A stretch of 64,000 bases of DNA from Eledone cirrhosa (taxonomy: Eukaryota), in contig OZ024751.1 of the NCBI GenBank assembly GCA_964016885.1, forward strand, positions 47,492,001 through 47,556,000, written 5' to 3'. Below, in pieces: positions 451-59,582 of this stretch. Each line of letters begins with the position of its first letter. Within the stretch, counting starts at the first letter, position 1. Below the pieces are notes generated by a model. That model saw nothing but the letters and a program-made list of their open reading frames with translations. It ran no database searches and had not been told where the DNA came from. A program made the position numbers and the translations under genes.

Positions 451-1025
451 ATAAAATATTAAACAAATAATGAATAAAACAATGAAACAGTTCCTTATAT
501 TAAACAAAAAAAGTTCATTATTTAACGATCGTTTCTAGGATATATATGTGTTAGAATTGGCATGCACATTCAACAGATCTATGTACAAAATTATACAAAA
601 TTATACAAACTTATACAAACTACCAAGATTAAATATACATACCAAACACACATATACGCCGTCTTCAGAAATAATCATTATTTCTGAAGACGGCGTATAT
701 GTGTGTTTGGTATGTATATTTAATCTTGATAGTTTGTATAATTTTGTATAATTTTGTACATAGATCTGTTGAATGTGCATGCCAATTCTAACACATATAT
801 ATCCTAGAAACGATCGTTAAATAATGAACTTTTTTTGTTTAATATAAGGAACTGTTTCATTGTTTTATTCATTATTTGTTTAATATTTTATCTTGACTCT
901 GTATACCGTTTATCTTTCACCGAAAGTGATTTTTCATTACATCTCTTCTTTCCATGATATCCGGAATACATTGAGTTCTTCATACGGATTGGACACTACC
1001 GTAAACTCTTGGTAGATTTATCTAC
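451..1025. mobile_element. (TA)n-flanked fold-back element (arms 451-675 and 677-891, single-copy tail to about 1025)
   Basis: Near-perfect inverted repeat of about 220 bp with a 1-nt apex at 676; contains an HHR. Confidence 0.85.
675..827 (+). ncRNA. Type I hammerhead motif with a very long stem II (mirror copy 517-675 on -)
   Basis: Stem I tcattattt/aaataatga (9 bp); CTGAAGA 684-690; 116-nt stem II region with about 16 bp of basal pairing; GAAA 807-810; palindromic CGATCG; cleavage triplet GTT. Confidence 0.7.
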
Positions 1026-1434
1026 ATATATATATATATATATATATATATATATATATATATATATATATATATATATATATATATATATATATATATA
1101 TATATATATATATATATATATATATATATATATATATATATATATGTAGGAGGTGAGTTTTATTGTAGTACAATAAAGCAATGCAGATATCGGATAAGTA
1201 GCACTCTACAGTTTGTAGGACTGGAGTATAAATAATATATAAGATCAAAAGATGGTTAAAAGGGTTCCATGTATTTTATTATACGCATTTCAACAACGTC
1301 AAACGCAACTTTGTTAAATGTTCTTAATCCCATTCTAAATCAAGAAACTATTATTCCTATCGTAAATAACATCTCCAATCCAATTCCTTCTATAGATAAC
1401 ACTAGGTCACTTGTTAATAATTCTGTTAATTTCT

Positions 1435-1830
1435 CTAATCGCAATTGTAATTGCCCTGTTAAAAATAAATGTTCTCTCAACAACCATTGTCCTGAAAAAA
1501 ACATAATCTACGAATGTAAAGTTATAACTGACACCAATCCTTTACCTATTTTGGCTCCACTTCTACCTCCTTTAAAGCTCGTCTTTATAATCATCATTCG
1601 TCTTTTAAATACCAACTTAAAAGAACTAACACGGCACTCTCAGAACTCATATGGTCCTTGAAAGACAAAAATATTAACTATAACATCTCTTGGAGGAAGG
1701 TTTGTTCTGCTTCTCCATACTTGAATGGTTCTCTATCCAGGACATGTAATCTTTGTTTATGTGAGGAATTTACCATTATATCTAATTTAGATTCTATAAT
1801 AAATAGACGCACTGACTTGTATCACTTCCC
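1435..1830 (+). pseudogene. Frameshifted GIY-YIG endonuclease C-terminus of a Penelope/Neptune ORF
   Basis: CNCPVKNKCSLNNHCPEKNIIYECKV, then a frameshift near 1540, then TYFGSTSTSFKARLYNHHSSF...TALSELIWSLKDKNINYNISW...CNLCLCEEFTII...IINRRTD. This has the Cys-rich linker, IIY/YFG, the catalytic R/H region and the CNLC..E..N motifs typical of Neptune-clade GIY-YIG domains. Confidence 0.85.
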
Positions 1831-2641
1831 TTTCTTTCTTTTTTTTTTCTTTTTTCTTTTTTTCTTTTTCTTTTAATTTCTAACCTCTAATCTGTACCTT
1901 TTCTTCCTAGATACTTCTCAATTCTCATTTTTAATCACCACAATATATCCTTACCCTTTTAAATACTTTATAATATCACCTTGAAAAATCCTTCGTAAAC
2001 ATAAACATTTTTTTGAAGTTAGATTATTCATCCTCAATTCATTATTTTTTTCTCCCTTTAATGCTCATCTAACTTATACATATTACACTTATTCATCCAC
2101 TCTTCTACTTCTTTTCACAATATATCCTTAATTACATTACTATTGTTATATTTTTATATATTTTTAATAATACATATCAACAATTTCTTTCCATCGCACA
2201 TATTATTAAACCCTTAAATATTATTCTTAATACATATTAACAATTTCTTTTCATCGCACATATTATTAAACCCTTCAATATACAAACCTTAATTTAACAT
2301 TATTCTAGAATTTTTCTCTTCGTTAATTTTCAAATTCTTTTAATTTATTTATTATCTTCCAACGGTTTTTTTAACCTCTCTATGTAAAACAATATATTTT
2401 TCTCAGTTATAAAATCTATCTCTCTCTCTCTATCACCCATCTCTCCTCCTATCTCATCCTTCCTTATTATACTCCTCCCCCTCCATTCTTTAATTTCATC
2501 TCCTCCTCTTTTTCATCCTTTCCACCCCACCCCCCTCAATTTTTTCCCCAATATCACACATCAATCTAAAACTACTTTTCATATGTTGATTTAAAACTGC
2601 ACTATCCACAAGTGTTTTTTAACCTTCATATCATGTCTCCC

Positions 2642-2712
2642 TATTTTATCTGACGAAAACGCAAATGTCATCGCATGATGATATTTGTTTTTGAAATGCG
2701 CATAATAAAATA
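2642..2712 (+). ncRNA. Minimal type I hammerhead in the Penelope 3' repeat (family B)
   Basis: tattttat-CTGACGA-aaacgcaaatgtcatc(gcat)gatgatatttgttttt-GAAA-TGCGCA-TA-ataaaata: 8-bp stem I, about 16-bp stem II, palindromic stem III. Confidence 0.88.
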
Positions 2713-56600: not shown

Positions 56601-56849
56601 GGTCACTTCTAAACATGTCCCTTAGAGTCGTAAATCGCCTGTGATCTCAATCATTACTTTGCCAGGCGGTGCCGCTTTACTGTCAGCGAGGATTCTATAA
56701 ATTTAATATTATTTGTCATCAACACATCGCCTAAAACATGGATATTTTTACAAGAGGAATTTAATCAACTTCCTCACTCTACTGTGTTCTTTCTACATAG
56801 ATGACTCCATTGCTTCTAGCCAAATAATTTTGTGGAATGCACAAAGACA

Positions 56850-57455
56850 ACTCCTCCTCCTGCTCCTGCTCCTGCTCCTCCTCCTCCTCCTCCTCCTACT
56901 ACTACTACTACTACTACTACTACCCCCACCACCACCACCACTACTACTACTACTACTACTACTACTACTACTACTACTACTACTACTACTACTACCAACA
57001 CCACTACTACTATCACCTCCATTACTACCACCAGCACTCCACCAGCACTTCACCACAACCTCCATTCCACCAGCACTTCATCACAACCTCCACTCCACCA
57101 GCACTTCACCACAACCTCCACTCCACCAGCACTTCACCACCACTTCGCCACAACCTCCACTCCACCAGCACTTCATCACAACCTCCACTCCACCAGCACT
57201 TCACCACAACCTCCACTCCACCAGCACTTCACCACCACTTCGCCACAACCTCCACTCCACCAGCACTTCATCACAACCTCCACTCCACCAGCACTTCACC
57301 ACAACCTCCACTCCACCAGCACTTCACCACCACTTCGCCACAACCTCCACTCCACCAGCACTTTATCACAACCTCCACTCCACCAGCACTTCACCACAAC
57401 CTCCACTCCACCAGCACTTCACCACCACTTCGCCACAACCTCCACTCCACCAGCA
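56850..57455. repeat. CCT/CTA microsatellites followed by a 27/27/39-bp composite minisatellite
   Basis: ctccaccagcacttcaccacaacctcca variants in a higher-order pattern of about 93 bp. Confidence 0.85.
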
Positions 57456-58559
57456 CACAAAAAAACTGAAATGTCAATTACCATCGCTAACAAAGCATCA
57501 AAGAGCCACCAAATATCACGAGAACAACACAAAAAGGAAAATTCAATGATTCTACTCAAAATGGCGTTTTAAATAAATATTTGTCGCAATAAGTTAAATT
57601 AAAACGACTTTAGGAATTTTATCTGAAAGAAAAATCGATTGAAAAATGAAAGCCCCCCCCCCCCCCCCCCCTAAAAAAAAATGGAAAGAAATTGAAAGAA
57701 TTATAACACTGAACCAGCAATAAGAACGGTTGTATATTGGCACAGTAGAATGTTCCAGAATAATACTTATTTATATAAAAAATACAGAAGAACGGTGGTA
57801 AAAATTAAGATTGATGTTATTCAAATATATATTCTTAATGAAGAAAGCGAGAAAAACAAATGCCGAGCAAATATTTGGCTTGATTGTTTAAAACAGAAAT
57901 TTAACAAACAGATGATATTTTAAACATATGTCTATTTATTTATCCATCTAACTTACTTTTTATTGTATTCTTATTTCTTATGTATACATGTATGTATTGA
58001 CCTACAACGCTAGATGGAGTCGTAGAGGCAATATCCTGACTTGTGTTGGCGTCATGTCTTGGGCACTTTTATACTGGGTGGAAAGTCGCTTTCTTCGAGA
58101 GAGAGAGAGTGAGAGAGAGAGGGAGAGAGAGAGGGAGAGAGAGAGAGAGAGAGAGAGAGAGAGAGAGAGAGAGAGAGAGAGAGAGAGAGAGAGAGAGAGA
58201 ACGATAGGGAAGAAGTGAGAAAGAAACAGACGAAGAATCGATCTCGATACTCGTATGGTTCTTTATTTATCGATCTCGATGGGTTTTGAATTGTAGAAAA
58301 CTGGAATGGATATCGTAAAACGTTCTATCTGAGGTTTTAACGACTGTGCCTCATGTATTATTATACGCACATCACTCTGCCTGTCTCTGTCGATATATAT
58401 ATATATATATATATATATATATATATATATATATATATATATATATAGTTATGTAGTTATGTAATAAACAACATAAGATAATTATTTCATTTACCTTTCC
58501 TTTGCCTTTCCTACGGAAATACTTCATTTATATATATATATATATATATATATATATAT

Positions 58560-59582
58560 GTAGAAGTTCTATTTAAATTGTTGGGACACAAGCAAATATT
58601 TTTATAACTGATATAAAGCACTCAACAAATTATTGGAGCAAAAATTCAATATATTAACAAATGGAAACTATATTTATAAAACCATATTTATTTCATTATA
58701 CATATTTCAAGGACACTAAGTTAAATTATGGTGTGCTTTCATCAGATAAAATATAATATAGAGCAGTTTTATAAATAAATATTGACATAAATAAATGCGA
58801 CCATTTCTGTTGGAAGCTCCCGGATAGTGGGGTTATAAATTTATTTATACTATTATGTAAATTAGTTTCGGATATTTTTAAATCAGAGTAGATTTAAATA
58901 AGCCGTTGAGTTATGGAGAAAGAGAGAGAGAGAAAAAAAGAGAGAGAAAAAAGAGAGGGAAAAAAGAGAGATAGAAAAAAGAGAAAAAAGTGCAAACTCT
59001 AAGAGGAAAATAAGAAAAGGAGAAAGAGAAGAAAAAAGAAAAGAGAAAGTGAAAGCTCTAAGTGATAGGTTGTTGTATTAGCTTAATATTTAAATATTTA
59101 TTCTTTCACTTCATCTCAAAAGTTAAGCTAATACAACAACCTATCACTTAGAGCTTCCGCTTTCTCTTTTCTTTTTTCTTCTCTTTCTCCTGTTCTTATT
59201 TTCCCCTTAGAGTTTGCTCTTTTTTCTCTTTTTTCTCTTTTTTCTCTTTTTTCTCTTTTTCTATCTCTCTTTTTTCTCGCTCTTTTTTTTTCTCTCTCTC
59301 TCTTTCTCCACAACCCAACGGCTTATTTAAATCTACTCTGATTTAAAAATATCTGAAACTAATTTACATAATAGTATAAATAAATTTATAACCCCACTAT
59401 CCGGGAGCTTCCAACAGAAATGGTCGCATTCTTTAAGGGTATGTCAATATTTATTTATAAAACTGCTCTATATTATATTTTATCTGATGAAAGCACACCA
59501 TAATTTAACTTAGTGTCCTTGAAATATGTATAATGAAATAAATATGGTTTTATAAATATAGTTTCCATTTGTTAATATATTG
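58560..59582. mobile_element. Large (TA)n-flanked fold-back element, family A (arms of about 440 bp)
   Basis: 58647-59086 against 59122-59582, with several substitutions and small indels between the arms. Includes a CT/AG-rich UTR-like segment and the HHRs. Confidence 0.88.
59476..59540 (+). ncRNA. Minimal hammerhead, divergent family A (mirror copy 58689-58753 on -)
   Basis: tattttat-CTGATGA-aagcacac...gtgtcctt-GAAA-TATGTA-TA-atgaaata; stem II carries compensatory changes relative to the 23037 copy. Confidence 0.85.

What the first reader, a model, noticed from the sequence alone, without database searches (positions are those of the whole stretch)
451..59582. Invariant polarity: the antisense arm always precedes the sense ribozyme
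Seen: in all ten fold-backs with a full core (0.7, 5.0, 16.5, 23.0, 23.9, 30.4, 33.1, 46.4, 50.4, 59.5 kb) and in the family C hairpins, the sense HHR is in the downstream arm on either strand. The arms are joined at their 5' ends and point outward, and one arm has an extra tail of roughly 40-130 bp. Inference: this records the insertion mechanism (cDNA fold-back or template switch during second-strand synthesis). It also means a read-through transcript makes the ribozyme's complement first, which could sequester the HHR and make intronic insertions tolerable.
Basis: partly seen in the sequence, partly recalled or inferred. Interest (0 to 1): 0.75.

Follow-up and report, generated by a model that had tools for sequence, protein, structure and literature searches.

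The report
Penelope insertions joined head to head
These mirror-image insertions are stubs of Penelope-type jumping genes whose back-to-back layout is already published, and their lopsided arms suggest the element is likely copied from both ends of the cut chromosome rather than shaped to silence its ribozyme.

Summary
The polarity is real. All 22 contiguous opposite-strand pairs in the window are head-to-head, as are 66 of 66 in 980 kb of evenly spaced genome samples. They are 5'-truncated Penelope-like retroelements in (TA)n; longer genomic copies of four families carry RT and/or GIY-YIG ORF pieces. Head-to-head inverted pLTRs with a one-sided tail are published (PMC3846280, PMC8557442). This scan noted them, with two-ended priming, on other DNA of this genome. 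Snap-back occurs: 46 near-symmetric apices against 28±3 shuffled. But the tail-less arm usually reaches further 5' (104 against 32), and in 32 of 193 pairs the tailed arm is only the tail. That favours priming from both target ends at two fixed RNA sites. Ribozyme masking does not explain the polarity: families without a canonical core share it, and 50 of 91 intact ribozymes have no upstream antisense arm. Known structure; modest mechanistic interest.

The parts
231..366 (.). Family K head-to-head insertion without inverted repeat: antisense pLTR end (231-282) joined to sense tail only (284-366), in (TA)n
453..1019 (.). Family G fold-back; 1-nt loop at the 5' edge of helix I; hammerhead with long helix II in both arms; 131-nt tail on right arm
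1145..2744 (.). Family B: short tailed antisense arm (1145-1297) joined to a 1.45 kb tail-less sense arm with a broken endonuclease-end ORF piece, 3' UTR and hammerhead (2650-2704)
   Evidence: no Pfam hit for the ORF piece
3884..4046 (.). Family K: antisense pLTR end joined to sense tail only
4680..5125 (.). Family A fold-back, tail on left arm, tail-less arm 22 nt longer at the turn
16258..16672 (.). Family F fold-back, hammerhead in both arms, tail on right arm
18565..18743 (.). Family K fold-back (non-canonical core), partial tail on right arm
21692..21884 (.). Family C hairpin, no CUGANGA core, 78-nt tail on right arm
21961..22086 (-). Host GPCR exon (helix 6 region); with the exon at 33.5-34.0 kb it bounds an 11.4 kb minus-strand intron holding six of the insertions
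   Evidence: AG before, GT after; inferred from the translation, not scanned against Pfam
22772..23151 (.). Family A fold-back, truncated tail (about 22 nt) on left arm
23404..24204 (.). Family D: tail-less left arm with an internal deletion that removes the core, turn at about 23640, tailed right arm with hammerhead (23943-23977)
24723..24918 (.). Family C hairpin, tail on left arm
28463..28933 (.). Family J fold-back (no canonical core found), 40-nt tail on left arm, tail-less arm 129 nt longer
30077..30612 (.). Family H perfect 218-bp hairpin, 1-nt loop, about 100-nt tail on right arm
33022..33222 (.). Family I hairpin turning just before CUGA (no helix I found), tail on left arm
33484..33957 (-). 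Open frame holding a host rhodopsin-family GPCR exon
   Evidence: Pfam 7tm_1 E=5e-22
40779..40846 (.). Family K: antisense pLTR end joined to the last 20 nt of the tail; no inverted repeat
41137..41449 (-). Family A solo, tail-less, intact hammerhead with no antisense arm
46088..46558 (.). Family B fold-back, tail on left arm, duplicated sequence at the turn
50265..50580 (.). Family E fold-back, tail on right arm
51742..52075 (.). Family B: long tail-less left arm, short tailed right arm
53773..53881 (.). Family C: tail only (left) joined to tail-less sense arm; no inverted repeat
58556..59590 (.). Family A (diverged subfamily) 940-bp fold-back, tail on left arm
59830..60008 (.). Family C hairpin, tail on left arm
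60027..60200 (.). Family K: half tail (left) joined to tail-less sense arm; no inverted repeat

Best explanation
These are 5'-truncated Penelope-like retroelement insertions in (TA)n, joined head to head with a tail on one arm, and the polarity likely arises because both cut ends of the target prime reverse transcription at two fixed sites near the RNA's 3' end. Shown: family identity, the two fixed outer ends (pLTR end and tail end), the polarity, the arm asymmetry. Inferred: one target end primes at the pLTR end and gives the usually longer tail-less cDNA; the other primes at the tail end and often stops within or just past the tail. The two are then joined by microhomology, either directly (short or no inverted repeat) or after the long cDNA snaps back and copies itself down to the tail cDNA (perfect hairpin). 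Both outer ends are therefore element 3' ends, and tail-to-tail cannot come from one event. The hammerhead is a passenger in the pLTR and would not be needed to set the polarity.
For: A near full-length copy shows (TA)n, inverted tail-less copy, pLTR plus tail, RT and GIY-YIG-type ORF, UTR, pLTR, tail, (TA)n (L031). Exactly one tail in 193 of 229 pairs away from locus edges. (TA)n at both outer ends in 162 of 194, one end in 31. Tail-less arm longer 104 against 32; tail-only arms 32 of 193; junction overlaps of 1-7 nt are common. Near-symmetric apices exceed shuffling, 46 against 28.1±3.4, family D 5 against 0.5. An RCTC..GAGY hairpin lies 6-9 nt beyond both end points in read-through copies of families A and C, two copies each. 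In vitro a Poseidon PLE cuts and extends both strands, starts at two internal sites that bracket the tail, and inserts with a dead ribozyme (PMC11167929, parts 1-2 of 4 read).
Against: 32 pairs have the tailed arm longer; family D is near even (10 against 8). 9 pairs have no tail, 4 have two and 23 have an arm that reaches neither end. Deletion within one arm after insertion could make some tail-only joints. Arm-to-arm identity does not separate the models (higher than the best other copy in 21 of 69, equal 18, lower 30). The twin hairpin is absent in family D and poor in G. PMC11167929 reports no homology between start site and target, while the ends here look TA-like. No experiment was done on these families.
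Confidence: 0.6

Rival explanations
1. One cDNA starts at the tail end, folds back at its 5' truncation point, copies itself and stops short of the tail.
For: Excess of symmetric apices; 32 pairs with the loop in the tailed arm; it also forces head-to-head polarity.
Against: The tail-less arm is longer about three times as often, and 32 of 193 tailed arms are tail only; it does not explain why the second end is fixed per family.
Confidence: 0.15
2. Self-priming on an antisense RNA template makes the head-to-head hairpin before integration (proposed in PMC3846280).
For: Published reading of the same polarity (Discussion read); short palindromes at many apices.
Against: Does not predict non-overlapping joints or the tail-less-longer bias; in vitro a pLTR-ORF template is copied by target priming on both strands (PMC11167929). 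No RNA data here.
Confidence: 0.12
3. Both polarities form, and selection keeps head-to-head copies because the complement is transcribed first and masks the ribozyme.
For: Unmasked intact motifs are rarer in myosin introns: 4 in 333 kb against 50 in 980 kb; 1 sense against 8.5 expected. Both intact motifs on the pre-mRNA strand of the window's GPCR intron are masked.
Against: Same polarity in families with non-canonical cores and in Naiads (PMC8557442). 50 of 91 motifs are unmasked in the samples. The intronic deficit is on both strands and includes coreless solos, 15 in 333 kb against 95 in 980 kb. Tail-to-tail neighbours across (TA)n persist: 18 in the samples, 4 in the introns. A single minimal hammerhead showed no detectable cleavage (PMC4209133).
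Confidence: 0.05
4. The palindromes are fold-back artefacts of long reads or assembly.
For: Some hairpins are 100% perfect with a 0-1 nt loop; one is a 7.4 kb palindrome (L209).
Against: Turns fall only inside element sequence, outer ends are family-fixed with one tail and (TA)n flanks, many arm pairs differ by 1-5%, and the layout is published for other animals.
Confidence: 0.02

Closest known systems
Endonuclease-bearing Penelope-like element insertions with an inverted 5'-truncated pLTR and one-sided tail (PMC3846280, passages and Discussion read; PMC8557442, passages and section 11 read)
   Same: Inverted copy at the 5' end, head-to-head 'most frequently observed', palindromes at the junction, tail at one end, (TA)n targets, partial tandems.
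   Different: Tails here are 40-131 nt rather than 30-40. Those papers, in the parts read, give no counts of which arm is longer or of tail-only joints; PMC3846280 proposes antisense self-priming.
Hydra clade of C-terminal-endonuclease PLEs (PMC8557442 section 11)
   Same: Families A, C and G have RW[KR] and DKT; A, G and B have the CxCX5C linker; all insert into (TA)n.
   Different: Family D has DKS and CX4CxxC (Neptune-like) yet the same layout. No tree was built. Families C and K have non-canonical hammerhead cores.
PAc Poseidon element in vitro (PMC11167929, parts 1-2 of 4 read)
   Same: Two internal start sites that bracket the tail; both strands cut and extended; AT-rich target; ribozyme dispensable.
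   Different: That study does not model the inverted junction in the parts read, and reports no homology between start site and target.
Minimal type I hammerheads of metazoan PLEs (PMC4209133, parts 1-2 of 4 read)
   Same: Short palindromic helix III, extra base before helix II, paired motifs on opposite strands 100-700 bp apart.
   Different: The order of the opposite-strand pairs is not stated in the parts read.
L1 twin priming (recalled, from no call)
   Same: Second target end primes internally and gives an inverted 5' part joined by microhomology.
   Different: Here the internal site is fixed per family, and the arms often overlap into long hairpins.

Membership tests
EN+ Penelope-like elements | Single ORF with RT and C-terminal GIY-YIG endonuclease | tested here: met
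   Family D copy L211: Pfam RVT_1 (below curated cut-off) and GIY-YIG (at cut-off), both E=1.4e-4. The other 5 of 6 frames (A, C, G) gave no RT or GIY-YIG hit, but A and G show Y[RV]DD and Y[IV]GxT motifs. Families E, F, H, I, J, K were not linked to an ORF.
EN+ Penelope-like elements | pLTR formed by partial tandem, with hammerhead | tested here: met
   L031 (family A) and L212 (family D); descriptor
EN+ Penelope-like elements | Inverted 5'-truncated copy at the 5' end and tail at one end | tested here: met
   193 of 229
EN+ Penelope-like elements | RT phylogeny within PLEs | not tested
   No tree built
Hydra clade | RWK-type motif, DKT, CxCX5C linker, (TA)n target | tested here: met
   A and G all; C the first two; B the linker
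Hydra clade | Same motifs in family D | tested here: not met
   DKS and CX4CxxC
Type I hammerhead ribozyme | CUGANGA, helix II, GAAA, NUH and helix I | tested here: met
   Families A, B, D, E, F, G, H
Type I hammerhead ribozyme | Canonical core in families C, K, J and helix I at 33.1 kb | tested here: not met
   GAGAAGA (C) and CAGAAGA (K) in the reference copies; none found in J; no helix I at 33.1 kb
Type I hammerhead ribozyme | Self-cleavage | not testable with these tools
   Needs an in vitro or in vivo assay

The most novel reading that the evidence does not exclude
The ribozymes of these elements cut host pre-mRNA in vivo, so introns of conserved genes keep mainly the hairpin form in which the complement is transcribed first; the insertion mechanism (two-ended priming at twin hairpin signals plus snap-back) would thus build its own silencer.
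Probability: 0.12. Interest if true: 0.65.

Novelty: already known. Interest (0 to 1): 0.33.

Why it matters
How Penelope-like elements make their inverted ends and tail is described as unresolved in the papers read. The arm statistics here (tail-less arm longer, tail-only joints, excess symmetric apices) discriminate between models and can be tested with the existing in vitro system. Separately, the insertions place 100-400 bp near-perfect hairpins in introns at about 7 per 100 kb; these would be double-stranded RNA whatever their polarity, and so likely substrates for RNA editing or small-RNA pathways (inference).

Tried and rejected
Rfam: no hit at gathering score; the best 150 of 488 weak hits shown held no hammerhead. 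Own-genome DNA searches for families B, H and F returned nothing because common words are skipped; family C was not searched, and its copies came from loci fetched for other reasons. The core landmarks for families B, I and K were mis-set, so its 'full core' tables are not used; its tail and reach counts do not depend on them. Arm-to-arm identity did not separate the models. No upstream GPCR exon was found, so the solo at 41.2 kb cannot be called intronic. Sequencing runs: no RNA holder listed. Reads laid on 33005-33980 were dominated by other copies of the repeat and settle nothing for this locus; 22300-34000 was not examined with reads. The two nominal tail-to-tail repeats were inspected: separate neighbouring insertions, 84% and 92% alike. 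The intron test rests on 8 myosin genes (333 kb); dynein genes found were not examined. Literature searches for a two-ended priming model of PLEs listed none by title or abstract start; the library lacks most subscription papers, and supplements of the four papers were not read and may show arm structures.
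Full report
Observation. A structural descriptor for type I hammerheads found 17 motifs in the window and none in the reversed window; a looser version added the two at 0.7 kb. Using single genomic copies of 11 families as references, the window holds 22 contiguous opposite-strand pairs, all head-to-head and each with one tail. Corrections are listed under the observation check: 33.1 kb lacks helix I, the left arm at 23.9 kb lacks the core, family C hairpins have no canonical core, and 'on either strand' adds no information.

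Genome-wide test. The window lies in a 3.0 Gb animal assembly. I took 98 evenly spaced 10 kb stretches (2 of 100 asked for did not exist). De novo inverted repeats holding a hammerhead were 28 head-to-head and 2 tail-to-tail, with 429 holding none; the 2 are separate neighbouring insertions. With family references the samples gave 79 contiguous head-to-head pairs and 3 nominal opposite ones (2 internal self-hits, 1 join to an internal segment); loci picked by search gave 142 and 6 (4 self-hits, 2 with 68-81 nt between). Requiring both arms to reach a 3' end gave 66 and 0, plus 18 tail-to-tail and 5 head-to-head neighbours separated by (TA)n. For family G all 31 candidates were scored, and all 6 opposite-strand pairs within 10 kb are head-to-head.

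What it is. L031 is a near full-length family A copy with one stop and a frameshift: (TA)n, inverted tail-less copy, pLTR plus tail, ORF, UTR, pLTR, tail, (TA)n. The tail is the sequence just past the pLTR, running toward the ORF start. Families D and G also link to long ORFs and C to an ORF start. Pfam gives RVT_1 and GIY-YIG for the family D frame only, 1 of 6 frames scanned. Motifs place A, C, G and probably B in the Hydra clade and D nearer Neptune. Families E, F, H, I, J and K were not tied to an ORF and are assigned by layout alone.

Mechanism. Of 229 pairs away from locus edges, 193 have exactly one tail, 9 none, 4 two, and 23 have an arm reaching neither end. (TA)n flanks both ends in 162 of 194. 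Among the 193, the tail-less arm reaches further 5' in 104, the tailed arm in 32, and 57 are equal within 3 nt; in 32 the tailed arm is tail only, so there is no inverted repeat. A lone cDNA starting at the tail predicts the opposite bias and cannot give tail-only joints without a further jump. Snap-back is real all the same: among 152 pairs with short junctions and full reference cover (41 dropped), 46 have apices within 5 nt against 28.1±3.4 after shuffling. I infer priming from both target ends at two fixed sites, closed by microhomology with or without snap-back of the long cDNA. PMC11167929 shows the needed activities in vitro for another PLE. Following a lead from earlier notes, I found an RCTC..GAGY hairpin just past both end points in read-through copies of A and C, a partial one in K, a poor one in G and none in D. 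Against the model: family D is near even, 32 pairs go the other way, and later deletion was not excluded.

Masking. In the samples 36 of 91 intact motifs have a full upstream antisense arm, 5 a partial one and 50 none. Families C, K and J, with no canonical core found, are head-to-head in 51, 26 and 8 pairs. Naiads lack canonical hammerheads and share the layout (PMC8557442). A single minimal hammerhead showed no detectable cleavage (PMC4209133), and the PAc ribozyme needs protein. So masking does not cause the polarity. In 333 kb within 8 myosin genes, unmasked motifs number 4 (1.2 per 100 kb) against 5.1 per 100 kb in the samples, while masked ones are equally dense (3.9 against 3.7); 3 of 34 stretches against 34 of 98, p=0.004, though stretches of one gene are not independent. 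But the 4 are 1 sense and 3 antisense (8.5 expected each), and solos without a canonical core are also about twofold rarer. The deficit is therefore not shown to be sense- or ribozyme-specific. In the window an 11.4 kb GPCR intron holds six insertions, and its two intact pre-mRNA-strand motifs are both masked, too few to weigh.

Comparison and novelty. PMC3846280 calls head-to-head the most frequently observed arrangement, describes the one-sided tail, and proposes antisense self-priming. PMC8557442 draws the same layout. PMC4209133 notes paired motifs on opposite strands. The rule is thus known. Four searches listed no paper with a two-ended priming model for PLEs, within a library that lacks most subscription journals. 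This scan's own unchecked notes reached a similar model on other DNA of this genome and others; they are leads, not support.

Verdict. Observation confirmed; interpretation partly supported; structure already known; interest 0.33 for the arm statistics and a weak intronic hint.

Noticed in passing
L031:2690-2810 and 7540-7640; L057; L160: A small RCTC..GAGY hairpin sits 6-9 nt past both the pLTR end and the tail end in families A and C; candidate start signal for reverse transcription. Absent in family D.
   Followed up: partly
L035 (family K), L109 (family C): Abundant families keep hammerhead helices, GAAA and NUH but have CAGAAGA or GAGAAGA in place of CUGANGA; dead or variant ribozymes.
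   Followed up: partly
families A, C, E, G, H, I: 5' truncation points pile up per family, near or upstream of the ribozyme's 5' edge (G -207, E about -130, C -50 to -63, A -175 to -189 from the pLTR end); may mark transcript starts.
   Followed up: partly
L209:1210-8549; L213:821-2895; L211: Palindromes of 2-7.4 kb with ORF pieces in both arms, 96-99% alike.
   Followed up: no
L118:5970-8037: About 311-bp hammerhead-bearing unit in a tandem array with an inverted partner; retrozyme-like.
   Followed up: no
window 684-813: Family G hammerhead has a helix II insert of about 110 nt with a GT..AG stretch whose removal would leave G joined to AAAC; possible intron, untested.
   Followed up: no
window 49758-49967: 105-bp-arm hairpin of CA/TG-rich sequence with no hammerhead and no family match.
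   Followed up: no
window 33484-33957 and 21961-22086, minus strand: Two exons of a rhodopsin-family GPCR; its other exons were not found in the window.
   Followed up: partly
window 36437-38316, 44111-44753, 20087-20595: Tandem arrays with periods of about 66, 93 and 106 bp.
   Followed up: no
window 12952-13730 (-), 7555-8043 (+), 52769-53474: Fragments that look like the endonuclease end of non-LTR retrotransposons (resemblance recalled, not scanned).
   Followed up: no
L259-L292: Solo element ends of all kinds are about twofold rarer in myosin introns than in the genome samples, while head-to-head pairs are equally dense.
   Followed up: partly
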